Shown: positions 26,643 to 64,000, numbered from the stretch's first letter. The stretch is 64,000 bases of DNA from Azolla caroliniana (GCA_043228905.1 JBHGNT010000006.1:10912001-10976000), one strand, 5' to 3'. Notes: generated by a model from the sequence alone, not told the origin. Numbers and translations are program-made.

Positions 26643-27574
26643 GCGGCCCTCGACTTGGTTCGTGAAGTCCTCTCGCGCAAGCACCAGGTACTGCATCTAC
26701 CCTACCCCCATCGGCATCGTCACTAACTCTACCATCCATTTGAAATGGACGGCCGACGGGTAGGTCGGGTGTAGCTCGTCTCGATGTCGGATCATGGAGT
26801 GCATTTGGCAACTCTCACACGTCGTAACGAACTGATATACATCCCGGTATAGCCATGACCACCAATACTTCTCCTTTAGCTTCTCGAATGTGGCCCACGT
26901 CTCGCGATATCCGGCCCAAGGACTCTCGTGATATGACGTCAGCAATGCCTTCCGCTCTTCCTTTCCTGCCACTACGCGGAGTGGAACGCCACCTTGCTTT
27001 TTCGGGTGCTTCCATATGTTCCCGTCTCGCAGGAAGTACCGATACGCCTACTTTCAGATCCGGTTAGCTTCGTCTCTCGTCCACGCTGCGTCTGGCGTCA
27101 TTGTCTTCAAGAACCTACCGATCTAGATCCACTCTCCGTTGTACTCGCCTTCATCGAACTCGTTAAGTGCTAGAGTGCTCCCTGCCCTTGTAGTCACGTA
27201 CGCCAACTTGAAGAAGTCTACGCCGACTTCCTCGTCCTCTGATACCATGTTGTCCTCGTCGTCGAATTGTGCTCTCCAAAGCATGTCGGTGATGGTGTTG
27301 TCTTTCCTGGAGATATGCCGTATCTCCGTATTCAGGGACTTCACGTACACGATCCACCTAAGCACCGCCAGGTCCAGTGTCGCGCATTCGGAAACCATAC
27401 GGAGTATCGGTAGGCAATCCATCTCGATTATCACCTCCGTCTCAATCAAGTAGTCTTTATTGGCCTTGAATGTCGAAACGATACCCCACAATTCATGTTT
27501 AACCTGGGCGTATCCTCACTGTTGCTCGCTAAGTACCCATCCGATCTCGGTCGGGCTCGTGTCTACGGTCACAT

Positions 27575-29549: not shown

Positions 29550-29591
<42 letters not shown>

Positions 29592-36585: not shown

Positions 36586-37229
36586 CGGATGGGAAGGGAG
36601 AAGAACAGTGCCGACGAACAAACTCGGCCGAGGCCGAAACGGTATGAACCGGATGGGGAGAACCCGACTTCGGAGAGTCGGATGGTGTAGGCCCGGTATG
36701 AACCGGATGAGGAGTACCCGACTGCGGAGAGTCGGATGGTGTAGGCCCGGTATGAACCGGATGAGGAGTACCCGACTGCGGAGAGCCGGATGGAGCCCAT
36801 CGAGGCTACATTTGTAAATAGCCGAAAAGTCATATTAGTATAAATATGACTTAGGGCAAACTTTTAGTTGTGTGTTGTCATTCTGGTTGTTATTCTTTTC
36901 GTTGTTGCAAGAAGAAATCTGAGCGCGTAACTGTACAGAGAGAGAGAGAGAGACGAGGTCGTTGCCTCTGTTGTAACCGCCGCCTGTGGCGAAGATCTGA
37001 GAGCACGAGGTTGTTGCCTCAGTGATCTCACTGTTGTATATTTCTACATAGTGACAGTTTGCAGCTTGTGGGCTGCCGTGGTTTTCCCCCTATTTTGGGG
37101 TTTTCCACGTATACTCCTGTGTATCATTTCTCCTCTTCTGTGTCGCGTTTCATTACCTGTTTTTCTGTGTATGTAAAGAATCTCGGTTGTGGCCGAGCGT
37201 CGGACATAAGGAACGTCAAGTTCTCAACA
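36586..37229 (+). mobile_element. 5'-clipped solo LTR (same family as 29208-29860) with ~54-bp tandem repeats, flanked by an 84-bp direct duplication
   Basis: Shares the gtaaatagccgaaaagtcatattagtataaatatgacttagggc block and ends in caaca. 36502-36585 matches 37230-37313. Confidence 0.85.
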
Positions 37230-37528
37230 GCGGACGAGACCGTCGGGCCAGACGGATGCCGGAGGTTCGTCATGAACCACATCAACGACTGCGAGAAGGT
37301 GCTGCAGAGGCTCGAGAGCGCACGACTCACCTTCTCCAGAGAAAAATCGGCGTTCGGGCAGTCGGAGATCTTGGTGGTCAGATACCTGTGCGGGCCTTAC
37401 GGTAGGAAACCGTCTCCGGCAAAGGTAGAAGCCATCTCCGCGATGAAGGACGACTACGGGTCAGTTACGGAGGTCCGCAGATTCTTGTGGGCATTCGCGT
37501 TCTACCACATCTGGATTCCGCACTACGC

Positions 37529-38192
37529 TGTCGCGAAGATGCGCGTGCGAGCGTGCTTCGCTTGAGCGGGACCACCGGGGTCTTGGACCAAGGAGGATGT
37601 CCGTCAAGGTATTGAGAAGAGGACGATGTGAATGTAAGATTGGAAGAAGACCTATTACACTTGAGAAGATTGAAGATTGTACACTTTCAGAAGTAGATAA
37701 ATAATTACAAGATAGATGCGAAGAAGAAGAAATAGAAGCTTATATTATTGATGGTGATGATGATGGTCATATCATATTGAGCCCCCACCTTACACAAGCC
37801 GTACTAGGGGTTTTATAGGTTTGTCCATGCACAAAACCATGGGCTTGGAGCCATGGTTTTTGTGCACACAGTTTTGCTTTGTGACATGCAGGAAACCATG
37901 GGCTTAAAACCGTGGTTTTGTGTACACAGTTTTGTTCGTTTGTTTCCTACGGAATACTGAATATGAGAAAGAAATATAGAACATCTAAAGCACTTAGTAG
38001 TAGCTTTAGTGGTAAGGTAATTGCCTCTTACCTTAGAGGTGCAAGGTTCAAATCCTACTTGCAACCCTCTACATGCACTCAATGCCATTGTGACCTAGGT
38101 TTATTTATTTTCATTTTTACAAGTATTCGTGAAATGTGTGTGGATCCTCAATTTTTGAGTTTTTCTCGCACTAGACATGCCACATCATGACA
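37529..38192 (-). mobile_element. Solo LTR resembling the Trp lineage (tgtcgcgaag...catgaca)
   Basis: 4-bp TSD acgc; removing the insert restores the host codons PHYAHVA. Terminus resembles the lineage LTRs. Confidence 0.85.
38001..38062 (+). ncRNA. tRNA-like Pol III cassette in the solo LTR
   Basis: tagctttagtgg ... cctct/agagg stem ... ggttcaaatcc. Confidence 0.65.
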
Positions 38193-39037
38193 ACGCGCAT
38201 GTTGCGGAGCCGCTTTATGGGCTATTGAAGAAAGGGCGTAGGTTCGAGTGCAGGACAGAGCACACGGAGTCGGTCCGGAGGATGAAAGAGGCGCTTGTTG
38301 CGGCACCAGCTCTCCGGAAAGCGGTTTACGGCAAGGAAGTCCCCATTTGCATGACGGTGGACACGAGCCCGACTGGGATCGGGTGGGTAATCAATCAGGA
38401 GGACAATTGAAAAGGGGGTGTAGCTTTGAGTAGAGGACGGAGCACACGGAGTCGGTCCGGAGACTAAAGGAGGCACTTACGGTAGCACCAGCTCTCCGTA
38501 AAGCGGCTTACGGCAAGGGAGTCCCCATCTACGTGACGGTGGACACGAGCCTGATCGGGATCGGGTGGGTGATCAACCAGGAGGATGAGGACGGTGCACG
38601 GTTCCCGATTCGGTTCGGGGCGAAGGTATTGAGCGAGCGGCAGCAAGGATACGCCCAAGTCAAGCGTGTACTATGGGGTATCGTTTTGGCAGTCAAGGCC
38701 GACAAGGACTACCTGATCGGGACGGAGGTAACAATCGAGACGGACTGCCTGCCGATACTCGGTATGGTTTCCGGATGCGCGACGCCAAACCTAGCAATGC
38801 TCCGGTGGATAGCGTACATTAAGTCCCTGAACCCGGAGATACGACACATCTCCGGAAAGGATAATGCCATGGCCGACATGCTTTCGAGAGCGAGGTTCAA
38901 CGACGAAGACGGCCTGGTTTCGGATGACAAAGAAGTCGGTGAGGACTTCTTCGGGTCGACTAATGTGACGACGAGGAAAGGGGACACTCCGGCGCTTAAC
39001 GAATTTGATGAAAGCGGGTACGAAGGAGAGTGGCAGT

Positions 39038-42000
39038 AAAAGGCCACCCCCACCGACCTTGAGCTCCCGTAGCGTTATGTCAGTGAACCGGTGCCCTATG
39101 CCAGCCGGATTCCGTAAACTTGGGTCCAACGCGACCCCTTTTATCCGCTCCTCGCTGCCCTTCGGCAAGGGTGCCACGACTGGCCTCACCTTCCGGTCCA
39201 CAATCTTGTACTTTGTATCCACGCGGGCCATCCGATCCGACCTGATCCTTTCCTCGAAGTCTGCGATGACTTCGTACATTCCCATCGAACTAACCGGAAT
39301 GGTCCGGTCTTCTCTAAGGTCTTCACCGATCACCTTTCGCAACTCGCCCAAGGTGTCGTCAAAAGAGACCGCCTCCAGGGCGCCACTGATTTCTTCGTTG
39401 GGGGAGAGGACTCCGCATCCCCTGAGCCACTCCTCCGCTCGCTTCCTTTCCCAGCCGCTGACGCCGGCCATAGTACAACCTCCATTGTCGGAGAACCAAA
39501 ATTTCCTACCTATGGTACAAGTCTTCTTCCGTACGTTACATTTGTGGGGTTTTTCCCGGGTGTCCGGACTATCGCGGCCCCACGCCTTGATAACCCTCTC
39601 TAAAAATCCCCTCGGGTTTCGCCGCCGAGGGCCTCGCGGTTACGCTCATGGTTTGGTCGCACCGTCAGGAACTGGACCGAGTGACGCCCGTCCTGGCTCT
39701 TGACTCTTGCATAGGCCGAACCGTTGTCCAGCACCTTGGTCTCCATCCGTGCCATTGTGATGTTTCCTGCACGAAGAAATGTTGATCTATCTCGACATCA
39801 CCGATCTTTACGCGTACATTCGGGCACGCACCATGCAGCTCCTCCGTAGCACATGTCGCTGTGCGTATCTTCCACCCATGCTTGGTGTTGATCGGCCATT
39901 TACCCCTCTTGTAGAAATCCATGGACATCAGGTTGATTTCGGATCCATGGTCTACCAAGGCCACCACCGGTTCCGGAACGTCGCCGATCCGCACAGGGGT
40001 TTCCGTAGTTGCCCTGGCCCAATGCGGCTTCGCGTAGTGGCTTTCTGCCAACTCGTCTTCTAGGGCCGTGTCTTCTCAGTGCGTAGTCCGCACCTCCACC
40101 AGCTTCTCCAGTTCTGGCTCTGTCGAGAGCTTCTTCCGTTTTACCAAGTCTACGATGGAGTCATGGAACTCCCTCTTGGCGATTCCCAGCACCTCCCACA
40201 ACTTTACTGTCGAGCATTCGCTCTTCAAGGACCTTCCGTAGGTCCGTTGCTCTCTCGATTTCGGTGCTCAACCGAAACCCCGCTTACTTCTTCCCATCCG
40301 GCGCGCCTGGGTTGCCGGCACCGGTCGGTTTCGGTCCGAACCGGGTCTCGTACCTCTACGGGGGACCGACCCCTCCGGCCTTTCCTGCCCGTTTTCTCTT
40401 CGACCGGATCGTCCCATCCGGTGACCTCCTAGACCTGTTGTTCCATGCGGTCCGCCTCTTCCTTCTTCAGTCGAACTCCAGAGAGACCTTCTAGCACTAG
40501 CGGCCAAAATCGAGAGTCCTTCGTCTTCCGGGTCTCATCACCCCCGACCCGAATTCCCGCCGACATTGAGTAGTTAACGGCTTCTACATGCCGTGTCGCG
40601 GCCTCTTCCATCAACCTCTTCATTCGGTCGCGCCCTATATTCAGTTCTAGGGCTCTCCGGGTCTTGCTCGCGTGCACCCGCCCGTTCCAGAGGTACACCA
40701 CGTTGGTCCTGAGTGCGTCGGCAAAATCCGCGCAATCCTTCCGAATGTGACCGATCACGTCACACCACATGCACCGCTGCCCAGCCGGTGGCCTCCGGTC
40801 GCAAGGTTGTTCGCCGTTGTCTCTCCGGGCCTGTGCGATCTGCAGGTCACGCACCATCTGTGTCAGATCCTCTAGAGCCGCTCCTCCGGATGGGCCTTTG
40901 ACCACGTCGTTCGATGCCGACCCCAACTCCAGCCAAATTCGGGTCTCTTCTTACCGGCTGGCACCGATACCGGCTCCTCGAGCCTCCTTGCCGGGACCAG
41001 TCCTGACTCCGATGAGTTTCGTCGCTCCACTCGCACCGTTTGTCGAAACGGCTGCAGACCCGTTTTACCATGGCCCAGTCTACCGTGAGCCCTTCGTCCG
41101 TCTCCAATAGGGGACCCACCTTTTCCCTGTCGAGCGCGTCCACTGACTTGACAAACAGTAGTACTCTACTCGTTTCAAGAACGGTCCGGTCCAGCGTCAA
41201 CAGCCGCACGAACAGTTTCTCGAACTCCTGGAGGAGCGCCGACGTGTTCCTCCCTTTCCCGAGGCTTTCCACCCAAGCCATGAAGTCCCACCTCGACAAC
41301 CGAAGCAAGTCATCAAACCCGTACTTCTCGAGGAGCTGCAACTCGAACTCCTCCCAAGTCTGGCATCCGGCCAGCACCTCGAGCACCTCCGCGTGGATGC
41401 TCGGCGTCACCACCCGAGGGAATCCGAACAGCCGCCTATCCACCAGGATATCCCTCATGATCATTTCGGCCCGATAAGCCTCCAAATAACTTGTGGGATT
41501 CTTCCCACCAAATCGGCCTATGTTGTCAACAATCGATTCAATGGCTCTGTCGAGGGTACCCGTCCCCTCACGAGCGCTCACCAGCCAGTCGACGGCTACC
41601 TCCATTGTCTCTTCTAGCTCCGATCCCCTCATCTTCCGACTCCTTTGCCGCCGGTTCACGTCGGGTTCACCAATTATGTCGCGAAGTTTCGCGTTCACGT
41701 GTAGGAAGAGGCGGAACCACAAGGGTCTTGGATCAAGGAGAGAGTGTGAGAGAGAGAGAGAGAGTTGTAGATACACAGAAAGAAAATAAGAGCAAGAAAC
41801 AGGAATCCAATTACTATAATCAGTAGCTTACAACTCGAACAGTTACAACCGGCAACCCGGTAATGGACCTGACACGGGGTCCTACTCACGCACACAGACG
41901 ACAACCACACGACTCGAAGAAACAAAAAAAAGGGGGGGGGGGGCAGGGGAAGAGAGAGAGAGAGAGCCTCTGCTGGAAGCACATGGGCTGTCCACGAAGC

Positions 42001-42299
42001 AGAGGCAACGAACGACGATCGGAGGAGAGAGAGCTCGACCCTCGGTTCTGCAGCAACACTTTGTCCTTGCCAACGCTTTGTCCTTTTCTTCGTCCTCTCC
42101 CTCCTTAAATAGTTTATTCCTTGTCCCTTTCGACAGAGATACACACAAATCCCCTAATAAATGTGTACTACGTAGTATTTACATCAGCCGACCTAATTAT
42201 GAATCATGTACAAAATATCGATTCTCGCGTCCACCCAGTAAGAGCCGGTTCATACGCCTTTTTCTCCGATTCCGCCTATGGCCGGTTTTCTTCACGACA
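39038..42299 (-). mobile_element. Trp-lineage Gypsy copy E-: 5' LTR 41677-42299, gag, PR and start of pol
   Basis: PBS 41655-41672, gag ORFs 40429-41640, protease VDHGSEIN, frameshift site at ~39600-39609. Confidence 0.9.
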
Positions 42300-43877: not shown

Positions 43878-43935
43878 TAGTCTAATGGTAAGAGCTCGAC
43901 CCATGTAGCATAAGTTCATGGGTTCGAGTCTTGCC
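43878..43935 (+). ncRNA. tRNA-like Pol III cassette in the chromovirus 2 LTR (decayed copy at 49154-49212)
   Basis: tagtctaatgg ... ggttcgagtc with the same 43-nt A-B spacing. Confidence 0.55.
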
Positions 43936-47113: not shown

Positions 47114-47257
47114 GCTGGATTATGTAATTCAAACCAAGGTAATTCTAGGACAATAGGATGCTCTGGACTACTAATTATATTAAATGCTGGATTATGTAAT
47201 TCAAACCAAGGTAATTCTAGGACAATAGGATGCTCTGGACTACTAATTATATTAAAT
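47114..47257. repeat. 72-bp in-frame tandem duplication in the chromovirus 2 protease
   Basis: AFNIISSPEHPIVLELPWFELHNP occurs twice in ORF 47086-47604. Confidence 0.92.
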
Positions 47258-49223: not shown

Positions 49224-51974
49224 CGTTCGACGTCTTGTGACAAGGGAGCATTCGGGCGTGCCCATGCACCTCTCCTCATAAAGACGTACGGGCATTTGTG
49301 TTTGTGTTATCGTCCCCTTGTATGTTCATCTTGCGTGCTCATCTTTGCTTGTAGCCGTTTGATCACTTGGCTCATGCGGTGATCGGGAAGTGATCTTGTC
49401 GTAAAGCAAACCTCGGGTCTTCTCTATCCCTTCAGTACTCCCTAGTTCAAGACCCCCGTGGTCCCGCCCAAGTAACACACACGCTCTAAACTTCGCGACA
49501 CCGTTGGCCAGCACCTTCGTTTCCATCTGAGCCACCGTAATGTAAGGTTCGCTAAGAATCACCAGGTGGGGGGATGCCTCCTACACGAAGAAATGTTGGT
49601 CTATTTCGACGTCACCGCATTCACCCTGATGTTCAAGCACACACCATGAAGCTCTTTGGTAGCGCGGGTTGTTGCACGTATCTTCCAACCATGCGTCATG
49701 TTGATCGGCCACTTCTCCATTTTATAGAAATACATCGACATCAGATTGATTTCCGATCCATGGTCGATCAAAGCCACCACCGACTCCTTAACATTCCCGA
49801 TCCGGACCGGGGTCTCGGTCATCACTCTAGCCCAGTGTGGGTTCATATAATGGCTATCCGGAAACTCCTCTTTCATCGCCACCTCTTTGAGGTGGGCCGC
49901 CTTCACTTCGACCGGCTTCTCCGGCTTGAGCTCTGACGAGAGTCACTTCCTTTTTACCAAGTCCACGATGGAATCGTGGAATTCCTTCTTTGTGATTCCC
50001 AGCACCTCTCGTAACGAGAGCTCCACCTTCCTACCGAATTTGTCATCCTCTCTATTTCCAAGCTTAACTGGAAGCTCGGAATCTTCGCCTTCCCCTGTGG
50101 GCTGGGTAGGCCTCCATCATTCCTTTTTGACCCACTCCGAGTCTCATACCAGTTCAAGGATCGGCCCCTCCGACCATTCCAGCTCGGTTGTCCTCGACCA
50201 GAACCTCATAGTTATTGCATGCGGCTTCTACAAAGCCAGTTTTCTCTTCAACCAGACCATTCCATCTGGTGCCTTCTCGGACCTGCCTCTCCACGCGGTT
50301 TGCCTCTTCCTTCCGTAGCCTCACCCCCGATGTGCCTTCTAGTACAAACAACCAGAATCCGGTATCATTTCCGAATCCAATGCCCTTCTCTCTGCCGACA
50401 CCGAGTAGTGGATGGCCTCAACATTCCAGGCAGCGGGTTCTTCCATTATCCTCTTGATGTCGCCTCATCCGGTATTCACCTTGAGAGGCCTTCACGTGTC
50501 TCACGTGTGTATCCACCCGTTCCAAAGATACACAATATTGTTCTTGAGTGCTTCGGCAAAATCGGCGCACTCTCTTTGGATGTGGCCAACGGCATCGCAC
50601 CAAATGCATTGTTGGTCGACCAGAGGCCTCCGGTCACATGACTTTCTCCCGTCGTCTCTTTGAGCTTGCGTGATCTGGAGATCACGCACCATCTTCGTCC
50701 GCTCCTCCAGAGTTGTGCCCCCGGATGGGCCCCTGACCATGTCGGTCAGACTCGTGCCCGACTCAAGCCACCTTCATGTCTCTTCAATCCGTGTTAGAAT
50801 CGGTTCCTCCGGCTTCTTCCCGGCACCCGGGCCGGTCGCCAATGACCCCGCATCGTTCCATTCTCACCATTTGTCGAAACGGCTACAAACCCTTTTTACC
50901 ACAGCCCAATCGGTCGTGAGCCCTTCATCCGTCGCCAACAGGAGACCCACCTTTTCTTGATCGATCAGATCGACCGATTTGATAAACAATAGGACCTTGA
51001 TTGTGTCGCGCACAATCTGGTTCAACGCCGAGAGCCGCGCAAATCGTCTTTCGAACTCCTGGAGGACCGTCGATGTGTTCCTCCCCTTTTTAGGGATCTC
51101 GACCCACTCCATCAGCTCCCTCTTCAATAATCGGAGCAAGTTATTGAAACTGTATCTTTCAAGGAGCAGCTCCTTGAACTCCAGCCAACTTCAGTAGTTG
51201 GCCTGCATCTCGAGCACCTCTGCGTGGATGCTCGGCATAACTACCCGTGGAAACGCAGACAACCGTCTATCGTCCGGAACATCTCTCATCAGCATCTCAG
51301 CCTTGAAGGCCTCTAGGTAGTTCATGACGTCCTTTCCATTGAATCAGCCCATCGTGTCGACTACCATTTCCACGGCTCTATCGAGGCCTCTAGTGCTCTC
51401 ACGAGCGTTAGCCAAGCGGTCGACATCCACCGCCATTGCTTCGGCGAGTTTGCTTCCCCTCATTTTTGGACTCCTCTGCCACCCTTCTGTCGGGTTCACC
51501 AAAGATGTCGCGGTATTCCATGTGGATGTGTCGAAACGGAGGGGACTATGGGGGTCTCAGACCAAGGTCTTCTAGATATATTCGTCGGATCAGTTAACGG
51601 TCGCGTACCCAGTCCGGGTCGGTTCCCCAATGCCAGACAATGAGTGCACAAGATCATAGATGTGTTTTGTTCTGGACCGGTCCTTGGATAACGACTCGGG
51701 ACTCGGATAAACGCGGGCAACAAACTGAGACAAAATGGAGATGCGTACACAACACACAAAGAGAAATCAAATGCAATGAAACGAAATAGATTATTCAAAG
51801 AGGAATATGACCGGACCTGGCCGGTATCAGAGCTACGCGCTCTCGGAACACGGACACACATAGAAACTCAAGACGATGAACCTCTGGTCGGGAGCTCACG
51901 GGCTTCCTGTGCGAGTAGAGGCTTCACCTTCTTCCTAGGGTCGGTACAGAGCACGAGAGAGAGAGAGAGAGAGA
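49224..51974 (-). mobile_element. Trp-lineage Gypsy copy C: partial 5' LTR 51507-51974, gag and PR followed by non-pol sequence
   Basis: PBS remnant gtcgggttcacca at ~51489-51501 and protease IDHGSEIN. Similarity to the family stops after METKVLANG. Confidence 0.82.
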
Positions 51975-53850
51975 TTATATTATCGTCATCAAAGGTCAAA
52001 TATGACCTATGAGACCAAAAATATTACATTTCACGTGATACGTGTGAAAGTGAGTAGTGACTCTTGATGTTCAAGAACTTTACCAATGAATGTTGCAATC
52101 AAGAGTGCACATTGTGGTTGTGAGAGGAATTCATTCAAGCAATGGGCTCGGTCGAAGAGATGTGGAAAGCGTGGTCGAATATGATCAAAAGCAGAGCATT
52201 GTTTCAAAGTGTGATACTTAGACACGCGAACTTATTTAGGGCAAAGTGTGCATACCTGACCACTTTCATCACTTGTGCCCCAACGCCCTGTCTCACATCG
52301 CAATGCATGTGATTTAAGTCGCATGGAAGCAATGGTTCAAATGTCAGATAACCATATGGGCTCTAACATGTATCGATGTGTACGATTTCCCCGTTCCGTA
52401 AAGAATATGGTTTTGTAGTTAGGTGCAACATGTGTAGTATAATGTGTGAAGCGTGAGCCTCCACATTTGTCCCATGTCATGATACATTGACGTTGCAAAA
52501 AGGCCTCATTTACAGAGGAATCTAATGATGCCTCATGAAGCAAGTGTCTCGCATCCCATCTACCAAACCATTTTCCTATATCTTACATGTAACCGGAACA
52601 CAAAATTTTGCTTTTATTCGTCTTTTGGATATTTTTGCTTGCTTCCCATGCAATTCTAGGAAGTCGAGATGCAGGACTTTTTTGAACCTTAGCATGTAGT
52701 CAAGAACCCTTTCCATGGCCATTATCTCAATGGGAAGCGATCCCATCTCAAGGAGGAGGAGGGTGTAGGGCGTTTGTTTCTTAACTTGTAGAAACTTTGT
52801 AGGAAAATGTTTTTGGACATTTTCAAACTCTTTCCACATAGATTTAGGGATGTTACCGCCCCATACTTCCACCCCATAGAGAAGAACTGGTGTCACCAAA
52901 GTGTCGAATAAGATATTTATTGAGGACCCAACACTTAATATCTCCAAGATTGCATGTGTTCTCAAATGCATAGTATGCTCGCTTACCCGCCTCTAAGCAG
53001 CATGTAGCACATTCATTCCATCTATGATTTGAAGGAACTTCAAGGCCAAGCTATTTGAAGCTTTCCACACATTCAAGTGGCTCATTGTTGTACATAATGC
53101 ATGGTTTATCTCTTTTTTGGCTCTTCACAAGCATAATCTTTGTTTTAGAGCTACTAACACTTAATTAAGTATGCATGCAAAAAATTTCCAATGCCTTCAT
53201 AAGCTTTTGTGCATCTCCTAAAGTATTTCCAAAAAGCACTACATCATCTGCATATAGCAAAAGCATAATCACAACATTCCTAATGGCAACTTCTTCAACA
53301 CATTCTTCCTTTCCAAACTTGGTAACCATTTCTTCCAATTCATCAATGCATAGACCAAATAGTGTTGGTGAGAGTGGGCATCCTTGCTTAACACCAATAG
53401 TGCTTTTGAAAAAATCTGAAAGTTTATCTCTCATGCGCACACAACATATAACCTTCTCCTAAATTCGGGAAATTGCAAGCATATATTCACTTGGCACCTC
53501 AAGTTCTTCCATTCGCCTCCAAAGATGCTCACAAAGTACCATATCAAAAGCTTTCTTGAAATCTACAAAGCAACAATATAAACCCTTACCTCTAAGGCGA
53601 CTTTCCTCCATTAATACTCGAAGGGTGACAAGGTGATCAATGGTGCTATGGTGTTTTCGAAAGCCGGCTTGTCCATAAGCTCTCTTACCATTTTTTTTAG
53701 CCCATACACTTCTTTGATTCCATTATACATCCAAACAGTTTTGTCATTAATGAGCCAACCATGATGGTTCGATAGTAGTTTACATTATTTATATCTCCAC
53801 CTTTATGTAGAGGTTTGATCTAATTTGTACTCCAATCGTATAGCATACCA
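51975..53850 (-). mobile_element. Non-LTR retrotransposon (LINE, RTEX/L2-like): RT and C-terminal part, degenerate; interrupted by Copia 2
   Basis: KPLHKGGD...YRTIMVG, GVKQGCPLSPTLF, LLYADD motifs; C-terminal RLKSHALRCETGRW plus Cys/His motif. The 3' end abuts (GA)n. Confidence 0.88.
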
Positions 53851-55961
53851 TGTTACAATGCATCATTAAACATATTTGAAACGAATAGTGTGTGGAAGCA
53901 ATAGGAAAACCGAACAACAGAAGACGCAGGTTTAATGGAAAGCTTAGGTTTGCATTGTACGCACAGGAGAGACAGAGAGAGAGTAAACACACAAAACTTA
54001 ATTCCAAAATAATACTCAATCTGTACATAGGATGTGCTCAATGAGAACTTTTATACAAGCCCTGACAATGGGCTGACATAAGTACTGACAGTACTTGACT
54101 GCTCATAAATGAGCCTCGACACTTACTCCCAAAACTATTCCTTGCGAGGAATATCTTTCTAACGGCCTTTCGGTCTACGCACCGATACGGCCTTCCTACG
54201 CACCGGTCTTCGTACCGGCTTTACGCATCGAATTACGCACAAATGTTGAGCTTGTTTCTCAACACTCCCCCTCAAGCTCAACTTGAGGTTCCGCCTGCTC
54301 TACCGGATCTACGCTCCGGCTTCTCCTGGCTACACGCCTCGCTCACGCTCCTCGGCCTGTTCGACTCCGCGCGCTTCGACCCTTCTGGTCGGCTTGTCTC
54401 CTCCCATGGCCCTTCATAGCTCCCTTGTTGTCGCGGTGTTGGTGCTTCTCCTGCTGCCTTCTTTTCCGCTTGGCCCTCGGTTGATTTAGTGTATCTGAAT
54501 CAAACATCCGAACCGACTTGGCTACCTCCGATCAGTTTTCGCTCTTGTCCGAGTTGGCTGTCTCCAACTCGTCTTCGGTCTTCTCGCCTTTGACGGCGTC
54601 ATCTCCGCCATGCCTGGTTGGCTCCGGCATTTTCTTTCAGCTACTCCCCTTACGTCCGCTTTCAGACTCTTCCGCGGATCTGCTCTCGGCTTCTTCAGTC
54701 GAGCCACGGTCTTTTCCGCTCCTTTCCTGCTCCCTTCGTGGTCATCGGGGACGTTTCTCCCCCTCAAGTTCGGCACGTCGAGGTGACGCAACCCAAGCGC
54801 ACCCGAGAATTGCCGTAACTTGTCCAGACCAAGAGGCTTGGTGAAGATGTCGGCGGTCTGCCGATTCGTCAGAACATACTGAAGTTCGACTTCACCAGAA
54901 AGGACACGCTCACGGACAAAATGGTAATGCACCTCAATATGCTTGGTCCGTTGTCGTGAAGATCCGTCACTACGCGCGGATCATGAGGCGGAACCGCCGG
55001 GGTTCTGGACCAGAAGGATTTAGAGTCGATACAAGCTTTGGCGAGAAAGTACTTAACATAGATTGGGAAAGAGAGAAGTTGAGATTACACGATCAATTTG
55101 ATAACGAATTTCTTCCTCTTAATTTTCATAAAAAAAACCGTGTTTTTCTCCTCCCCCTTCCCTCTTTTATAGATGCTCTCATGCATATGATGCATGTGAG
55201 GGTACAAGACATGCATAAATTGCATGTTTGCCATTTGGCGCTTAAGTATTACATGTGGTGCATGCTAACCATGTCACTCATTTTAGCTCTCATGGATGAG
55301 AATTTACATGTAAAAGTACAATGATAGAAATATAATTTCAACTAAATACCATGGCTTAATGGTAAGCCATTTGACTCCTAACTTGGAGGTGCAAGGTTCG
55401 AATCCATACCGGTGCCGCCGCCGGATACCGACGCCGACGTTGGATACCGGTGCCGCATGCCGCCGCCGGATTGTGGTTGGATGCCGTCGGATCACCGGCT
55501 CCATCGTCGGACCGGTTTTGGTTGGCCAAAACCCTTTTCGAGTAGCTAGCCACCTCCACTCTAAGTTCAACTTACCTTGAACTCTCTATGCTCCACACAT
55601 AGACACAAAGATAATATCTTTTGCTCCACCTTATATATGATGAGAGCCGTATTTGTCGTGCCTATGTGGGATATCTCACAATTTTCTCTTTTCTTTTCAC
55701 AAACTTTATACCCTCATATCTTGACATTTAGTTGTCTATTTCTCGTGTAATAAAGTGCATTCGAAACCTCCATCATTTTGTACTTAGATATTAAAAATGT
55801 TATCTTCACAATTATTGTATTACGTGATTCATACTCGATTTTGTACGTTTTATGGGATTTTCACACTATTGCCGAAAATCTTCACGACATCCACCCCCAC
55901 CAAACCGCACGTCCTCCGGTACGTGCCAAGAAGAGAAGAAGTGAGATTTCGGCTACGATGA

Positions 55962-58900
55962 TCAATTAGATTCCTCCATGTCTTCATTTTCATCCGGCCT
56001 ATTATGTTCATCGTCGAGGTAATCGAGGTCAGGATCCTTCTCTTGTCTTTTCTTGAAAAGCTTTACTCTTTTCCTCGCAATGGGTACGGCCAACCTTGAT
56101 CCGTCTAGTTCCGCAAGGTGGTATGTGGCATTATCGTTGGCACTTGTCACCACATATGGCCCGAACCATCTTCTTGCGAACTTCCTTGTTGTACTATGTT
56201 GATTGTCAAGGGTGCTGTCGTAAACCAAAACCCAATCCCCTTCTTCAATCTTCTTGGGACGAAGTCGATGCGTGTTGTCGAACCAAACTTTGTTCTTTAC
56301 TCGGGCTGCCTTCATCATCTTTCGCACTTTTTCTAAATCTTCAGGTCTTCTTTCAAGTTGCCTTATCTGCGCCGCTAATAACTCTTCTCTGCTCATCTCG
56401 TTCTCCCACGGTATCGCTACCCATGAGGCGATCGTCCTTTCGATGGGCATAATCGGCTTTTGTCCATACATAAGCTCCGTCGGCATATACCCTGTCACCG
56501 AGCTATGTGTCGTTCTATCGGCCCACAAGGCATAGGGTAATAGTCGTGGCCAATTCCCGACTCGACCGTTGCATGCCCGTACGATGGCTTTAACGATAGG
56601 TCCATGCCCTCGCTCGATCTTCCCATTTGCTTCCGGATTGTAGGCAGTCGTGAGGGAGAGCTTCACGCCTAGTCTTTCGAAGAGCTCCGTCGCTTCGTGC
56701 GCATCCAACTCCCCTCGGTCGGCCACTATCTTCCCTACACATCCATATCGGCAAACAACATCTTCAAGTAAAAATTTACAAACGGCTGAAGTCGTCTTAT
56801 TTGTCAAGGCTCGTCCTTCCACTTGATTTGTCAAGTCTTCCCTTGCGAGCGCTAAGTACTTCATTTGTCCCACTCCCATTGGCATCGAGACCAGATCCAC
56901 CATCCATTTGAAGTGAATGGTGAGTGGGTATGTCAACTTTAACTCATCACGATGACGTATATTTGAATATACTTGGCAACTTTCGCATGTGGACACGAAA
57001 TGGAGTACATCTTTGTACATGCTTGGCCACCAGTACTTCTCCTTCAACTTTTCGAACGTCGCCCATTTTCCTCTATGACCTGCCCAAGCACTCTCGTGGA
57101 ATTCGGTCATCAGCATCTCTTGCTCTTCTTTCCTTACCACCACTCGACGTGGTATTCCTGTCCTTCTTTTTGGATGTCGCCAAAGGAATCCTCCCTTCAA
57201 GAAGTATCGGTAAGCTTTCTTTCGGATTCGTAGGGCCTCCTCCTTTGTCAACGAATCATCTGTCGTCAATGTTCTTAGGAATCTACCGATGAGTAACCAT
57301 TCTCCTTCGTACTCGTTCTCGTTGAAGGCGTGGAGGGTTTGCGTGTCCTGGTCTTCCGCCGACAATCGAGCCATCTTGAAGAAGTCGAGGGCGACATCTT
57401 CATCTTCCGAAACCATGTTACTTCTATTTGAAAATCTTGCCCTCGACAGCATGTCAGCCATGGCGTTCTTCTTCCCTGCGATGTGACGGATCTCTGGGTT
57501 AAAAGAATGGATGTAGGCGATCCACCTTAGCATAGCAAGATCTGGGGTCGCACATCCCGAGACCATTCCGAGAATTGGGAGACAATCTGTCTCTATTATC
57601 ACTTCTGACCCGATCAGGTAATCTTTGTCCGTCTTCACTGCCGACACAATACCCCAAAGTTCCCGCTTGACTTGGGCATATCTTTGTTGCCGTTCGCTGA
57701 GAACCTTTGCTCCGAACCGGATGGCATATCGCGCATTATCTTCACCTTCTTGATTGATGACCCACCCGATTCCGGTTGGGCTCGTATCTACAGTCACGTA
57801 AATTGGTTTCCCTTCGGCATAGTCGGCCTTCCTTAGTGCCGGAGCTTCAAGAAGCAGTTTCTTTAATCTTCGCATCGCCTCTGTGTTCTCGTCTCGCCAT
57901 TCGAACTTTATTCTTTTCTTTAGTAGTCCATATAACGGTTCGGCAACATGAGCGTAGTGAGGAATCCATATATGATAAAACGTGCACGCTCCAAGGAACC
58001 TTTGAACCTCCGTTTGGTTTTCGCATTCTTCTTTCATGTCTTGGATTGCGTTCACTTTGGATGGTAAGGGCTTCCGGCCGTATGCTCCACACAAGTGACC
58101 TACCACCAAGATCTCCGGTTGCCCGAATGCGGATTTTTCTCCCGAAAATGTCAAATTCGCATCTTCGAGCCTTTGAAGCACCTTCTCGCAATCTTTCATA
58201 TGATCCGCAACGAACTTTCTACAACCTTCCTTATCTTTCGATTCATCTTTCTCCTCATCTGAACATCCTTTTATCGGAATATCATCCAAGAATGGCATCG
58301 TGATGTCCGGAATGCAATCCTTCAAGACTTTATTCATGGCATTCACCATATGAGCCACCGAGTTCGTTGCCCCTTGGGGTAAGGTACACATCCGCACAAG
58401 CCCGATCGGAGTCCTCATGGTTGTAATGTCCCGACTATCGATCGCCAACTGGAATTGGTCATATCCGGAGTAGAGATCGCCAATGGAGTAGATGGACCGG
58501 CCCGCAAACGCTTCGGCAAATTCGTCCACGCTCGGACCGATTCCGGCATTTCGAATTGTCACCTTGTTGACGGGTTGAAGATCTTGAATGAATCGCAATG
58601 ATCCATTCTTCTTCGGCACCGTGAACCACCTATTGGAATAAGGAGCATTCGACGGTTCTAGAATTCCCATACTCAGCTTCTCCTTTAAGAGCTCGATCAG
58701 CTTCGGAAGGTGTGCTCTCGGAACCGGTATCGGTTTCAAATTCCAAGGCACATGAGGCACCATGAAGATCACCATTGGCTCTATAACCTTTGGGTCGGCG
58801 CATCCGATTTCTTGTGGGAAGAATGCGAAAGCCTTCCCATGTCTCTCAAGCATATCGCGAAACATTCGCTCCTCTTCAGGGAGAAGGAAATCCTCCTTTC

Positions 58901-59456
58901 CAACTCGTAGCTTCCCCTTCGTCTCTTTGATGAAGTCATGACCTATCTTCTTTGGATCTCTTAAGCTTGGATCGTTAGCGACTTCCTTCATCTTTTGCCA
59001 GCTATCTTCCGGTAGCGGAACCGCAACTAGCTTGATCTTCTTATCCACCGTTTTATATTTCGTGTTGATGTCAGCTTCCTTCATCGAGATGCCACGACGG
59101 TATTCATCGATGATAGCGTACATGTTGACGGAGTTAACCGAAATCACGCGTTGGTTGTGAAGATAGCTCAAGTCCACGACGTCCTCGATTTCGCCGATGG
59201 TGTCGTTAAATGAGGCTTCTTCCATAATATGAGTCACGAACTCCCCTTCTTCTATTATGTTTTCTTCTTTCAGCATCTTCTCGAATTCTTGTATCCGGTG
59301 CTTGTGCTTCTTGTCGGGTAGTACTAGTTTACATGCGCCACTAGGTGTGACACATGTTGCTTCTCCTTGCAATCCACGCACTCTTCTTTCTTGTGGGGTC
59401 TTGTGATTGCTCGGACTATTTGTGCCCCATGCTTCAATAGTCCGCTCTAAAAATCC
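55962..59456 (-). CDS. Pol (RT-RNase H-integrase), uninterrupted frame entered by a predicted -1 frameshift
   Basis: The 1139-aa ORF extends upstream without a stop to GGATTTT at 59456. Motifs: FLDD, TVDTS, HHCC (H-H-C-C), D,D,E core, GPY module. No chromodomain. Confidence 0.93.
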   Translation of the reverse strand, partial: GFLERTIEAWGTNSPSNHKTPQERRVRGLQGEATCVTPSGACKLVLPDKKHKHRIQEFEKMLKEENIIEEGEFVTHIMEEASFNDTIGEIEDVVDLSYLHNQRVISVNSVNMYAIIDEYRRGISMKEADINTKYKTVDKKIKLVAVPLPEDSWQKMKEVANDPSLRDPKKIGHDFIKETKGKLRVGKEDFLLPEEERMFRDMLERHGKAFAFFPQEIGCADPKVIEPMVIFMVPHVPWNLKPIPVPRAHLPKLIELLKEKLSMGILEPSNAPYSNRWFTVPKKNGSLRFIQDLQPVNKVTIRNAGIGPSVDEFAEAFAGRSIYSIGDLYSGYDQFQLAIDSRDITTMRTPIGLVRMCTLPQGATNSVAHMVNAMNKVLKDCIPDITMPFLDDIPIKGCSDEEKDESKDKEGCRKFVADHMKDCEKVLQRLEDANLTFSGEKSAFGQPEILVVGHLCGAYGRKPLPSKVNAIQDMKEECENQTEVQRFLGACTFYHIWIPHYAHVAEPLYGLLKKRIKFEWRDENTEAMRRLKKLLLEAPALRKADYAEGKPIYVTVDTSPTGIGWVINQEGEDNARYAIRFGAKVLSERQQRYAQVKRELWGIVSAVKTDKDYLIGSEVIIETDCLPILGMVSGCATPDLAMLRWIAYIHSFNPEIRHIAGKKNAMADMLSRARFSNRSNMVSEDEDVALDFFKMARLSAEDQDTQTLHAFNENEYEGEWLLIGRFLRTLTTDDSLTKEEALRIRKKAYRYFLKGGFLWRHPKRRTGIPRRVVVRKEEQEMLMTEFHESAWAGHRGKWATFEKLKEKYWWPSMYKDVLHFVSTCESCQVYSNIRHRDELKLTYPLTIHFKWMVDLVSMPMGVGQMKYLALAREDLTNQVEGRALTNKTTSAVCKFLLEDVVCRYGCVGKIVADRGELDAHEATELFERLGVKLSLTTAYNPEANGKIERGHGPIVKAIVRACNGRVGNWPRLLPYALWADRTTHSSVTGYMPTELMYGQKPIMPIERTIASWVAIPWENEMSREELLAAQIRQLERRPEDLEKVRKMMKAARVKNKVWFDNTHRLRPKKIEEGDWVLVYDSTLDNQHSTTRKFARRWFGPYVVTSANDNATYHLAELDGSRLAVPIARKRVKLFKKRQEKDPDLDYLDDEHNRPDENEDMEESN
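59392..59456 (-). promoter_or_regulatory. Predicted -1 programmed ribosomal frameshift signal (G GAT TTT plus H-type pseudoknot)
   Basis: Slippery heptamer, 5-nt spacer, stem cggactatt/aatagtccg; loop tgggg is complementary to downstream cccca. Conserved in copies A, D and E-. Confidence 0.8.
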
Positions 59457-61739
59457 GAGGATTCGCCTCCGAGACTATCTCGATTCCTTTCATGATTGGC
59501 TCGCACTGTTAGGAATTGGACCGATCTTTGGTTGTCAAGACTCTTTATTCGTGCGAAGGCTGCTCCATTATCGAACACTTTGGTCTCCATCCGAGATGAT
59601 GTGATATAAGGTTACCCTAGGATGACAGGATGCGACGCCGATTCTTGTATGAAGAAGTGTTGATCCATCTCCACATCCCCGATCGTGACTTTGACATTGG
59701 GACAAGCTCCGTACAAGTCCTCCGTAGACTTTGTTGCCGCGCGAATCTTCCATCCATGGTTTGTATTGATTGGCCATCTTCCCTTTTTGTAGAAGTCGTT
59801 TGACATGAGGTTGATCTCCGAGCCGTGGTCGATCAAGGCTACGACGGTCTCTTTCTTCTCCCCGATCTTTACCGGCGTCTCCGTTGTCGCTCGTGCCCAA
59901 TGAGGTCGAGTGTAGTGGCTGTCCACCATATCTTCATCGATTTCGTCTCTTGCCATCGTTATGGCATTCGTTTTTGCTTTCTGCGGCTTCTCTTCTTCCT
60001 CGTCCGATTGTTGTCTCTTTCTCTTTACAAGGTCCACGATCATGTCATGGAACTCCTTCTTCGTAATGCCAAGCAATTCCCTCAAGGACAAAGTTACGTG
60101 GCTATCAAGAACTCGTTCTTCGAGAATCTTCTTTAGGTTCGTCGTCTGCTCTACGTCCGACCTTAGCTTATAGGTAGGTATGGTCCTTGTCCTCCGAGCG
60201 GGGTCTTCGACACCAACCTTCACGGGCTGAACCGTTTCTTCAACTCGTATGCTCGGCTCCCCTTTTCGGCTTGATTCTCGTTCCTCCGTTTGTAAAGGTC
60301 GACTCGTCTCCGCATCGTCCTTCTTTTTCGCGTTCCTTGTTTCATGTCTTTTTGATGGGCCTTGCTCTTCTATTCTCTTTCTCTTTTCTTCGACGAACAC
60401 CTCGTGGTTGTCGCACATCACCTCTGCGAGTATGGTGTTGTCGTCCACCGGATCCGACCACCCGGTTATGCTTTGCACGTTTCGGTCCGCAAGCTCTACC
60501 TCGTTCGATGTGACTTTTCCCTTCTTCTCATATTCGAGAACGGAAGTCCAAAACTTTGCTCCCGCTCTAGCAGCTTCAGTCTTGTCTTTCCCGACTCTTA
60601 TTCCGGCTGACGCAACATAGTGCATCGCATCCACATGAGTCGCATCGGCATCCTCCATAGATCTCTTCATTCCTCCTCTTCCGAAATTCACCGGCCGACG
60701 CAGCATAGTGCATCGCATCCACATGAGTCGCATCGGCATCCTCCATAGATCTCTTCATTCCTCCTCTTCCGAAATTCACCCATAGGGGTCTTCTAGTCTC
60801 GCTTGAGCAGATCATGTTGTCCTCTATGTATACGATATTTTGTCGAATCGCCTCTCGAAGGCTCGTACAATCCCTTCTCATGTGGTCCATGCTATCGCAC
60901 CACACGCATCTAAAGGGTTCTTTTCCTTTAGGGCCCCGACGATTCATGTCGGCTAGAGTGACCTTCTCGAACTTCTTCGCTAGCTCTTCAATGATGTCAT
61001 CATCAATCTTCTTTTCTTCCACGTTACTTTGTCTTGGCGGCTCATCTACTTTCAGCGGTCTTGCTTTCTCCGTGGTAGTCGGTCCCGTCAAGTCGGTGTC
61101 ATCAACCCATTGGCGACGCTTGTCGAACCTATTGCATGCCCGCTTCACCGCGATCCAGTCCGCTACGAGCCCATTTGCTTGGGTATCATCTTCGAGAAGA
61201 GTCCCCAACTCCCGTCTATCCTTTATGTCCACGGCCTTCAAGAAGTACAAAGTCTTGTCCTCTTCAAGCAATACTTGGTCCGTATTGGGGAGACGACTAA
61301 ACATCTGGTCGAATTCGTCGTACACCCTCGAGACGCTCATCTTCTTATTCTTCTTCTCTATCCACTTCATCAGGGCATGTCGAGTCATCCTCGTTGAGTC
61401 TTCAGTCACGAACTCCACTAGTATCGTTTTCTCGAACTCGGACCATGTTGTCTTTCCTTCTTGAAGCTCGATGATGCGTCTTTGGATGTTGTTGGCGACA
61501 ACTCTCTTGAAGCTTGCGATTTGACGTGCCTCGGACACGTCCCTTTGATTCATCTCCCTCTTATATGCATCAAGGAACTTCGTAACGTTCCTTCCATCGA
61601 ATTGGCCCTCGAGCTCTACGACACGATCGACAACCTTCTCCACGCTCGCGTCGTTGTCCCGAGATCTCATCATTTGCTCGACGATTAGCATCATCCTTTC
61701 GAGCTCTCCTGCTTGGTTGCTTGAGGACGCCATCTCCAA
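59447..61739 (-). pseudogene. Gag-protease ORF1 of copy F, broken by an 88-bp duplication (60603-60778) and a CAA-to-TAA stop (59612-59614)
   Basis: ORFs 60576-61739 and 59612-60739 join if the duplication is removed. Copy A has CAA at the stop position. The frame ends ...GESSDF*. Confidence 0.88.
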
Positions 61740-61774
61740 GTATTAATCTCGACTTGATCCTTCCTACCGCCTCT

Positions 61775-61792
61775 TTCACGTCGGGTTCACCA
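61775..61792 (-). promoter_or_regulatory. Primer-binding site complementary to the tRNA-Trp 3' end
   Basis: tggtgaacccgacgtgaa is complementary to plant tRNA-Trp ...UUCACGUCGGGUUCA-CCA (tRNA sequence recalled, not searched). Confidence 0.85.
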
Positions 61793-64000
61793 CTTAATTA
61801 TGTCGTGAAGATCCGTCACTACGCGCGGATCGTGAGGCGGAACCGCCGGGGTTCTGGACCAGAAGGATTTAGAGTCGATACAAGCTTTGGCGAGAAAGTA
61901 CTTAACATAGATTGGGAAAGAGAGAAGTTGAGATTACACGATCAATTTGATAACGAATTTCTTCCTCTTAATTTTCATAAAAAAACCGTGTTTTTCTCCT
62001 CCCCCTTCCCTCTTTTATAGATGCTCTCATGCATATGATGCATGTGAGGGTACAAGACATGCATAAATTGCATGTTTGCCATTTGGCGCTTAAGTATTAC
62101 ATGTGGTGCATGCTAACCATGTCACTCATTTTAGCTCTCATGGATGAGAATTTACATGTAAAAGTACAATGATAGAAATATAATTTCAACTAAATATCAT
62201 GGCTTAATGGTAAGCCATTTGACTCCTAACTTGGAGGTGCAAGGTTCGAATCCATACTTGCCCTCCTTGTATATGTACATATTTTTATATATTTATTTTA
62301 TCTAGTCGCCGGTTCGCCGGATGCCGTCGCCGGATGCCGACGCCGACGCCGGATACCGGTGCCGCATGCCGCCGCCGGATTGCGGTTGGATGTCGTCGGA
62401 TCACCGGCTCCATCGCCGGACCGGTTTTGGTTGGCCAAAACCCTTTTCGAGTAGCTAGCCACCTCCACTCTAAGTTCAACTTACCTTGAACTCTCTATGC
62501 TCCACACATAGACACAAAGATAATATCTTTTGCTCCACCTTATATATGATGAGAGCCGTATTTGTCGTGCCTATGTGGGATATCTCACAATTTTCTCTTT
62601 TCTTTTCACAAACTTTATACCCTCATATCTTGACATTTAGTTGTCTATTTCTCGTGTAATAAAGTGCATTCGAAACCTCCATCATTTTGTACTTAGATAT
62701 TAAAAATGTTATCTTCACAATTATTGTATTACGTGATTCATACTCGATTTTGTACGTTTTATGGGATTTTCACACTATTGCCGAAAATCTTCACGACACC
62801 GTGCGTGGAAGACGGGGTTCTTCGCGAGGTGGATGCTGCTAAGGTTGTCGTAGTAGATCGTCGTCGGATCGGACACCTCCACCTGCAAATCCTTAAGTAG
62901 CCGCTTCAACCATATGGCTTCGCATGTCGCAATGGCCGCTCCTCAGTACTCAGCTTCAGTGCTCGACAGTGCAACTGTCGGCTGCTTCTTGCTACTCCAC
63001 GCTATTGCGGCACTCCCAAGAGAGAACGTGTATCCGGACGTGGATCGGCGATCTGCGACATTGCCGGCCCAGTCGGCATCGGTGTAGCCGAACAACTGCG
63101 GGGCCATATTGGTCCGATATAGCAGTCCCCGGTCATTAGTGCTGCTTATGTACCGCAGTACGTGTTGCGCACACTGAAGGTGCTCCTCGGTAGGTCGCGC
63201 CATAAATTGACTGATCACCCCGATCGGGTAACTAAGATCGGGTCGGGTGATTGTCAAGTAGATAAGGCTTCCGACAATTTGTCGGAACCTTGTCGGATCG
63301 CAAACCTTGCCAGAATTGGGGCGAAGCTTCACAGTTCTATCCAGAGGAGTCGAGACGGACTTACAGTCTGCCATCCCGAATTTGAAGAGCATATTCAGGG
63401 TGTAATGACGTTGGCTGATCAGTATGCCTTTAGGGGTGTGGATCACTTCGATCCCGAGGAAGTAATGAAGGTCCCCTAGATCCTTCACGTCGAATGATGC
63501 TGCAAGCTAGAGCTTCACGTGGTTGAGTTCACCTAGGTCAGTGCCGATGATGACCAAGTCATCAACATAGAGTAAAATACTGACCGGCCCAAGTCGACCT
63601 TTCCGAATGAACAACGAGGAGTCCGATTTTGACGTCGCAAAGCCCATCCGACGCAGCCGATGCGTGATCTTTGTATTCCAGGCACGCGGGGCTTGCTTCA
63701 GTTCGTAAAGGGACTTCTTCAATCGGCACACTGCCGACGTGTTCGTTCCGGAGTGAAATCCGAGGGGTCCTCAAGCTCACCTTGCAGGAACGCATTCTTT
63801 ACATCCATTTGATGTAAGTGCCACCCCTTGGCCGCGGCTACCATGAGAAAAACACGGACAGTCGTCATCTTCGCGACCGGCGCAAATGTCTCATCGTAGT
63901 CGATGCCGTGTTTCTGCGCATAGCCTTTTGCCACTAACCGGGCCTTGTATCGGTTGACCGAGCCGTCGGTGTTGTACTTGACCTTGTGCACCCACCTACA

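What the first reader, a model, noticed from the sequence alone, without database searches (positions are those of the whole stretch)
54952..62798. Distinct Gypsy lineage: Trp-primed, CpG-centred 4-bp TSD, Gag-PR/Pol frameshift and tRNA-like LTR cassette
Seen: at least 7 copies (A-F, E+/E-) from several LTR subfamilies share, wherever the part is preserved, a Trp PBS, NCGN target sites, protease in ORF1, a GGATTTT frameshift before RT, DHG protease and FLDD RT motifs, and no chromodomain. Known: typical seed-plant Gypsy elements use Met/Arg/Asp/Lys-type primers and 5-bp TSDs. Inference: this is a coherent, poorly characterised lineage (possibly Phygy-like or fungal-related) with its own targeting and expression logic. 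Copy F is reconstructable by fixing two visible lesions.
Basis: partly seen in the sequence, partly recalled or inferred. Interest (0 to 1): 0.85.

Follow-up and report, generated by a model that had tools for sequence, protein, structure and literature searches.

The report
Phygy retrotransposon with conserved frameshift signal
This is a jumping gene that most likely belongs to Phygy, a known family from mosses whose primer type and CpG-centred target site are already published; what is added is a conserved slippery sequence and RNA stem that likely make ribosomes shift frame between the protease and the reverse transcriptase.

Summary
Copy F (54952-62798, minus strand) is a real 7.85-kb Gypsy element with a 4-bp CG-centred duplication, an 18-nt primer site, protease in ORF1 and no chromodomain. 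The lineage is most likely not new. REXdb's Phygy clade is documented with 4-bp NCGN sites (100%), tRNA-Trp primers (81%), 7.7-10 kb length and no extra domain. Two Physcomitrium proteins group with F (protease tree 100/99).

REXdb left the coding layout undetermined, and that part looks new. ORF1 ends in G GAT TTT plus a stop, with pol in the -1 frame, in 23 of 23 relatives holding both ORFs. A covarying stem follows, possibly a pseudoknot (weaker). Programmed -1 frameshifting is likely but untested.

The tRNA-like A/B-box cassette is real but not a lineage trait: 11 of 32 LTR pieces, both orientations, and also in a neighbouring chromovirus. tRNA-like LTRs are known (Helenus). The scan's other notes on this genome concern a different, PPT-less lineage; none matched this one.

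The parts
61801..62798 (-). 5' LTR of copy F (998 bp, TG...CA)
54952..55889 (-). 3' LTR of copy F (938 bp; lacks about 60 nt present in the 5' LTR)
54948..54951 (.). 4-bp target-site duplication CCGT (NCGN), left copy, inside a Copia RT-RNase H
62799..62802 (.). 4-bp target-site duplication CCGT, right copy
61775..61792 (-). 18-nt primer-binding site, 8 nt after the 5' LTR; Trp isotype recalled
59447..61733 (-). ORF1 region: Gag, CCHC knuckle (60908-60867), DUF4100, DHG protease (near 59836); interrupted twice in this copy
60603..60778 (.). Lesion: 88-nt tandem duplication that shifts the ORF1 frame
   Evidence: (family D14)
59612..59614 (-). Lesion: premature in-frame TAA in ORF1 after the protease core
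59447..59456 (-). Slippery heptamer G GAT TTT followed directly by the ORF1 stop TAG
59394..59444 (-). Predicted frameshift stimulator: stem 1 (59444-59436 with 59420-59412), possible pseudoknot stem 2 (59429-59425 with 59398-59394)
55962..59474 (-). ORF2 pol, 1170 aa, open: RT (FLDD), RNase H, HHCC integrase; -1 frame relative to the ORF1 end; no chromodomain, no extra RNase H
55890..55901 (-). G-rich polypurine tract abutting the 3' LTR
55352..55404 (+). tRNA-like A box / 32 nt / B box cassette in the 3' LTR, antisense to the element, about 180 nt upstream of the TATA-like box
62200..62252 (+). Same cassette in the 5' LTR
18807..26642 (-). Copy A: full length, same subfamily as F, duplication GCGG, inserted in the integrase of copy B; heptamer reads AGATTTT
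18046..27572 (-). Copy B: pol remnant split by copy A (18046-18805 and 26643-27572)
27587..34708 (-). Copy C: other LTR subfamily; primer site at 34541, heptamer at 32428; its 5' LTR is interrupted by E+
34709..39033 (+). Copy E+: rearranged, inserted at a GCGT site in the LTR of C
37529..38192 (-). Solo LTR with ACGC duplication and its own A/B-box cassette (near 38001, + strand)
39034..42299 (-). Copy E-: 5' LTR, primer site at 41672, ORF1, heptamer at 39609, truncated pol; right flank CCGT
49510..52000 (-). Copy D: primer site at 51501, Gag-protease remnant, junction disrupted; right end approximate

Best explanation
Copy F is a young, ORF1-damaged Gypsy retrotransposon that most likely belongs to the Phygy clade of non-seed plants, and its pol is likely translated by a programmed -1 ribosomal frameshift at G GAU UUU at the end of a Gag-protease ORF. 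Shown: the layout, the conserved heptamer with a stop right behind it, the -1 phase of pol, a covarying stem starting 5-6 nt after the heptamer, and CG-centred 4-bp duplications. Inferred: most ribosomes stop and release Gag-protease, while a minority pause at the stem (possibly an H-type pseudoknot), slip back one base and make Gag-PR-RT-RH-IN. A host tRNA (Trp by recall) primes the minus strand, the G-rich tract primes the plus strand, and integrase makes a 4-nt staggered cut centred on a CpG. The A/B-box cassette is an optional tRNA- or SINE-derived passenger in U3 of some subfamilies and is not part of the lineage's core logic.
For: Phygy row of REXdb Additional file 5: 4 bp (100%, NCGN), tRNA-Trp 81%, 7656-9968 bp, no extra domain, layout ND; the main text names NCGN as the one plant exception. 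F is 7847 bp. Physcomitrium proteins P0139 and P0169 are 60-62% identical to F over the protease and fall with F, Riccia and Adiantum in one branch at 100/99 against 15 other rows. The RT-RH tree gives the plant group support 1.0 (27 of 148 rows). Frameshift: 23 of 23 loci with both ORFs, out of 74 fetched; 30 of 34 junctions found without using the motif; all three stop codons occur behind the heptamer. ORF1 proteins end in DF (21 of 47) or DF plus 5-6 residues (20 of 47), including Riccia and Adiantum models. Stem 1: 94% of cells paired, 5 of 9 pairs change on both sides; RNAalifold alone finds 8 pairs, 4 with compensatory changes; the pol-frame peptide across it varies. G GAU UUU is a described plant-virus -1 shift site (PMC5009743). 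Outer LTR junctions in the loci are CG-centred in 11 of 17 candidates against 4.9% CG.
Against: No REXdb Phygy reference sequence could be compared (Additional files 1 and 3 were too large to read). The Physcomitrium link rests on two broken gene models that cover Gag, protease and the pre-RT stretch but not RT. TatI also has 4-bp sites and a Trp primer and is excluded only by the missing extra RNase H. Stem 2 pairs in only 52% of cells at a fixed register and beats its shuffles at p<0.05 in 8 of 24 rows, not in F (p 0.07). The 74 loci are collapsed repeat contigs whose names share one series, so they are not 74 independent genomes. No frameshift product or transcript was observed.
Confidence: 0.82

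Rival explanations
1. It is a separate, unnamed non-chromovirus clade that only shares traits with Phygy.
For: No direct comparison with REXdb Phygy domains was possible. REXdb calls Phygy specific to P. patens, while this group spans liverworts and ferns.
Against: Four independent traits match the Phygy row. Physcomitrium proteins nest inside the group. A liverwort genome paper already applies the name Phygy outside mosses (PMC12885004 passages).
Confidence: 0.1
2. Pol is expressed by another route, such as splicing as in Ogre or an internal start, and the heptamer and stem are conserved for another reason, such as a cleavage-site peptide or an RNA packaging signal.
For: Ogre and Retand also keep Gag-protease apart from RT and use an intron or a stop. 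The stem lies in coding sequence.
Against: The phase is -1 in 23 of 23 loci, the overlap is 10-121 nt in 22, the spacer between heptamer and stem is fixed, and the stop codon identity varies while its position does not. That is the classic frameshift layout.
Confidence: 0.08
3. The A/B-box cassette is a selected working part of the LTR: it would bind TFIIIC or fire Pol III beside the Pol II promoter, as a chromatin barrier or enhancer, and was gained several times.
For: 11 of 32 LTR pieces carry it with a 32-33 nt spacing and nearly perfect boxes, against 0 in 20 shuffles and 0 in 27.9 kb of pol. Where a TATA-like box was found it lies 95-216 nt upstream of it, in either orientation and with unrelated filler sequence. 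It also occurs in a chromovirus LTR.
Against: 21 of 32 LTR pieces lack it, including close relatives of F. The sister chromovirus LTR fails the scan. Similar cassettes occur in loci at places not shown to be these LTRs. SINE insertion into LTRs is the published explanation for tRNA-like LTRs (PMC10886601). No expression data.
Confidence: 0.25

Closest known systems
Phygy clade, non-chromovirus Ty3/gypsy (REXdb; Neumann et al. 2019, PMC6317226: passages, section 13 and Additional file 5 read)
   Same: 4-bp NCGN duplication, Trp-type primer site, length within 7.7-10 kb, no chromodomain or extra RNase H; Physcomitrium proteins in the same branch.
   Different: REXdb gives the coding layout as ND and the range as P. 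patens only. Here the layout is GAG-PROT overlapping RT-RH-INT in the -1 frame, and relatives occur in Riccia and Adiantum.
TatI (REXdb)
   Same: 4-bp duplication and tRNA-Trp primer.
   Different: TatI carries an extra RNase H between protease and RT; none was found here.
Fungal Ylt1-like non-chromovirus Gypsy elements (PMC2864245 and PMC3248453, passages read)
   Same: The nearest outside relatives by RT-RH (33-46% identity) include Smittium, Tilletia, Phenoliferia, Zalerion and Chara proteins; ORF1 look-alikes in the Atlas are mostly Basidiomycota.
   Different: Ylt1 itself was not in my data, so the label is a lead only. These relatives have DSG, DTG, DNG or DEG proteases, not DHG.
-1 frameshift signals of the G GAU UUU type (pea enation mosaic umbravirus; PMC5009743, passages read)
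   Same: Same heptamer, with a stop close behind it.
   Different: Here the stop follows directly, the site joins protease to RT in a retrotransposon, and the stimulator is a local stem. The review says a 2003 survey found only +1 arrangements in plant elements; REXdb later lists overlapping frames for Tcn1 and Selgy, but between Gag and protease.
Helenus and Cassandra TRIMs (Kojima 2024, PMC10886601, parts 1-4 of 6 read)
   Same: tRNA-like A and B boxes inside LTRs; the paper notes that many Repbase LTRs hold tRNA-like sequence.
   Different: Those are short non-autonomous elements thought to use the boxes as their promoter. Here the boxes sit in autonomous-type LTRs, upstream of a TATA-like box, and often antisense.

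Membership tests
Phygy (REXdb) | RT/RH/INT phylogeny within the Phygy clade | tested here: inconclusive
   REXdb references were unreadable. Proxy only: Physcomitrium protease and pre-RT stretches group with F (100/99).
Phygy (REXdb) | 4-bp target-site duplication with NCGN | tested here: met
   3 of 3 two-sided sites in the window and 3 more flanks; 11 of 17 candidate ends in loci.
Phygy (REXdb) | tRNA-Trp primer-binding site | tested here: met
   18-nt site in F, matching sites in 4 more copies, complementary to a CCA-ending plant small RNA. The Trp isotype itself is recalled, not shown by a call.
Phygy (REXdb) | Length 7656-9968 bp, coding region filling the interior, no extra ORF | tested here: met
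   F is 7847 bp and A is 7836 bp.
Phygy (REXdb) | No chromodomain and no extra RNase H | tested here: met
   None in F or in 7 pol relatives; the same scan finds Chromo in the neighbouring chromovirus at 44019-44723.
TatI (REXdb) | Additional RNase H between protease and RT | tested here: not met
   No such Pfam hit in F or relatives.
Chromovirus (Tcn1 and others) | Chromodomain after integrase; 5-bp duplication | tested here: not met
Ylt1-like fungal clade | RT-IN phylogeny with Ylt1 or Tca3 | not testable with these tools
   No named Ylt1 sequence was returned; fungal proteins surround the plant group but the backbone is weakly supported.
Programmed -1 frameshift cassette | Slippery heptamer in the right phase, short spacer, downstream structure | tested here: met
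Programmed -1 frameshift cassette | H-type pseudoknot second stem | tested here: inconclusive
   Mean helix score 15.3 against 11.5 (shuffled) and 12.0 (downstream windows); 20 of 24 rows above their shuffled mean, 8 of 24 at p<0.05; 52% of cells paired at a fixed register.
Programmed -1 frameshift cassette | Transframe product made | not testable with these tools
   Needs a reporter assay or proteomics.
Helenus / TRIMp3 | Short non-autonomous element with tRNA-like LTR | tested here: not met
   F is 7.85 kb with gag and pol; only the A/B boxes are shared.

The most novel reading that the evidence does not exclude
Phygy is the land-plant branch of a fungal and charophyte Gypsy group and has kept, across mosses, liverworts and ferns, a pseudoknot-driven -1 frameshift between protease and RT. 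In addition, its autonomous LTRs, and those of a chromovirus in the same genome, have repeatedly gained tRNA-type A/B boxes just upstream of the TATA box, which work as TFIIIC-bound barriers that keep the promoter open after insertion at CpG sites inside other transposons.
Probability: 0.15. Interest if true: 0.62.

Novelty: new member of a known kind. Interest (0 to 1): 0.36.

Why it matters
The lineage claim is ordinary: Phygy is in the standard plant classification with these primer and target traits. The useful gain is smaller but solid. The layout that REXdb left undetermined is filled in, with a compact candidate -1 frameshift signal conserved across non-seed plants. That gives a testable native recoding element in moss-type plants, and it may explain why gene predictors splice across this junction in Riccia and Physcomitrium models. 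The CpG-centred preference is published but unexplained, and could be tied to methylation. The recurring A/B-box cassette in autonomous LTRs is a lead worth a genome-wide count.

Tried and rejected
No whole genome is held, so genome-wide co-occurrence could not be tested. ARAGORN and Rfam found no tRNA or other credible RNA family in the window; the cassette is not a tRNA gene. Viral contigs gave no relative and no tRNA matching the primer. A search for a Physcomitrium RT through a Riccia query listed none among the best 120 of 1092 hits. Of 30 proteins looked up for names, 10 representatives carried an organism name. Sequencing runs: no RNA holder listed; the contigs laid say nothing on expression. 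Literature searches found no description of the Phygy frameshift or of A/B boxes in Phygy LTRs, and no mechanism for the CpG preference; the library lacks most subscription papers, and the 2003 recoding survey was seen only as summarised in PMC5009743. Scan look-ups by words and by sequence returned nothing on this lineage. Rejected: FLDD as a lineage marker; the cassette as a lineage marker; a PPT-less dual-tRNA design for F, which has a G-rich tract. Rows dropped: 10 of 34 junctions were left out of alignment A2 (8 near-duplicates, and the disrupted L018 and copy D junctions). The trees used chosen subsets (148 rows, from 256 full-length hits plus 3 shorter rows; 54 rows; 32); the bootstrap had not settled.

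Full report
What is there. Copy F spans 54952-62798 on the minus strand (7847 bp). Its LTRs differ at 11 of 937 columns, so the insertion is recent. It sits in the RT-RNase H of a Copia element, with CCGT duplicated on both sides; a fifth base is not duplicated. An 18-nt primer site starts 8 nt after the 5' LTR, and a G-rich tract abuts the 3' LTR. ORF1 holds Gag, a CCHC knuckle, DUF4100 and a DHG protease, and is broken twice: an 88-nt tandem duplication and a premature TAA. ORF2 is open for 1170 codons with RT, RNase H and integrase. Pfam finds no chromodomain or extra RNase H in F or in 7 pol relatives, while it does find a chromodomain in a neighbouring chromovirus.

Other copies. The window holds A, B, C, D, E+, E-, a solo LTR and one more LTR end. 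The primer site survives in 5 copies, DHG in 5, FLDD in 4 and the exact heptamer with stop in 3. Only three insertions keep both sides of the duplication (CCGT, GCGG, ACGC). E+ entered C's 5' LTR at GCGT, and C's other LTR shows that site uninterrupted. Two further ends have CCGT. All six are CG-centred against about 6% background. In 74 metagenome loci, 11 of 17 candidate outer junctions are CG-centred against 4.9% CG; three misses look like deaminated CG and three are probably not LTR ends. These loci are collapsed repeat contigs from what looks like one data series, so they are not independent genomes.

It is most likely Phygy. Neumann et al. 2019 (PMC6317226; passages, section 13 and Additional file 5 read) list Phygy with 4-bp NCGN sites in 100% of 186 elements, tRNA-Trp in 81%, 7656-9968 bp and no extra domain, and single out NCGN as the only plant target preference. 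Named relatives of F's pol are from Riccia (54-69%) and Adiantum (65%). Two Physcomitrium gene models are 60-62% identical over the protease and fall with F in one branch at 100/99 against 15 other rows (rough bootstrap). They lack RT, and REXdb's own sequence files could not be read, so the phylogenetic test is a proxy. TatI shares the primer and the 4-bp site but needs an extra RNase H, which is absent. The Trp isotype is recalled; the site is the exact complement of an abundant CCA-ending small RNA listed as miR894 and mapped to gypsy repeats (PMC5846777, passages).

Wider kin. In the RT-RH tree the plant group has support 1.0 (27 of 148 rows) and sits among proteins of 33-46% identity. Those that carry names are from Smittium, Tilletia, Phenoliferia, Zalerion and Chara. 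This fits the fungal Ylt1-like group of PMC2864245 (passages), but Ylt1 was not in my data and the backbone is weak. DHG marks the plant group (44 of 47 ORF1 proteins; not seen in the outer relatives whose motif was printed). FLDD does not (68 of 120).

The frameshift is the real addition. REXdb gives Phygy's layout as ND. Of 74 loci, 23 hold both a protease ORF and an RT ORF; all 23 end ORF1 in GGATTTT plus a stop with the RT ORF in -1 phase, and 22 overlap by 10-121 nt. A search anchored on the ORF1 tail, not on the motif, gave the heptamer in 30 of 34 junctions; two misses differ by one letter and two are disrupted. TAA, TAG and TGA all occur. Among 47 ORF1-length proteins, 21 end in DF and 20 end in DF plus 5-6 residues, including Riccia and Adiantum models. 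In 24 of the 34 junctions aligned, a 9-pair stem starting 5-6 nt after the heptamer is 94% paired and 5 pairs change on both sides; RNAalifold independently finds 8 pairs, 4 of them compensatory. The loop can pair with a downstream C-rich run (4-8 bp; mean score 15.3 against 11.5 and 12.0 in controls), and one subfamily has replaced both strands, but only 8 of 24 rows beat their shuffles at p<0.05 and F does not. G GAU UUU is a described plant-virus shift site (PMC5009743, passages). I put -1 frameshifting at about 0.9 and the pseudoknot at about 0.6. Searches found no description for Phygy.

The tRNA-like cassette. F's LTRs hold a perfect A box, 32 nt and a perfect B box, antisense to the element and about 180 nt upstream of the TATA-like box. 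It is not a tRNA gene. A fixed scan found such a cassette in 11 of 32 LTR pieces, in none of 20 shuffles and not in 27.9 kb of pol. It occurs in both orientations with unrelated filler, and in one of the two LTRs of the neighbouring chromovirus. It was not found in the C, D and E pieces or in most relatives. tRNA-like LTRs are known from Helenus, where SINE capture is proposed (PMC10886601, parts 1-4 of 6). The default reading is a passenger. The steady position upstream of the TATA-like box leaves a TFIIIC barrier or enhancer role open (about 0.25).

Verdict. This is a new member of a known kind, with one well-supported undocumented property (the protease/RT -1 frameshift signal) and one open lead (recurring A/B boxes in U3). 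The host is likely a moss, inferred from the Phygy and chromovirus content and not tested.

Noticed in passing
window 43526-49224: A chromovirus (YLDD RT, Chromo domain, LTRs of about 420 bp, no tRNA primer site noticed) whose LTRs end in a tRNA-like A/B-box stretch (43878-43930; decayed in the other LTR).
   Followed up: partly
window 61793-61800 and loci: The gap between LTR end and primer site is long and subfamily-specific: 8 nt in F and A, 4-5 nt in C, D and E-, about 1 nt in some loci. As I recall, 0-3 nt is usual; a longer gap implies longer end-processing by integrase.
   Followed up: partly
window 61775-61792: The primer site is the exact complement of the abundant miR894-class small RNA (PMC5846777), so tRNA 3' fragments could silence these elements.
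   Followed up: no
window 18046-42299: Repeated self-nesting: A inside B's integrase, E+ inside C's LTR, a solo LTR inside E+'s RT; E+ and E- face outward from a junction at 39033/39034.
   Followed up: partly
window 29225-29848 and 36583-37216: A related stretch of about 630 nt (72% identical), with short tandem repeats and LTR-like composition, interrupts pol in both C and E+ without TG...CA ends; in E+ a piece of RT is repeated after it.
   Followed up: no
window 55413-55520 and 62317-62420: GC-rich CCG-type repeat region inside the F and A LTRs that varies in length between the two LTRs of one element; the indel in F's 3' LTR starts right after the B box.
   Followed up: no
L054 1345-1849; L074 1160-2917: Tandem tRNA-Lys(CTT) x3 and tRNA-Arg(CCT)-like x4 arrays next to fragments of this lineage.
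   Followed up: no
proteins P0147-P0165, P0168, P0172: A subgroup, including an Adiantum model, has 5-6 residues between the DF dipeptide and the ORF1 stop, so the stop need not abut the heptamer.
   Followed up: partly
window 42300-43525: GC-rich stretch between E- and the chromovirus with short ORFs and no match to F's proteins; identity unknown.
   Followed up: no
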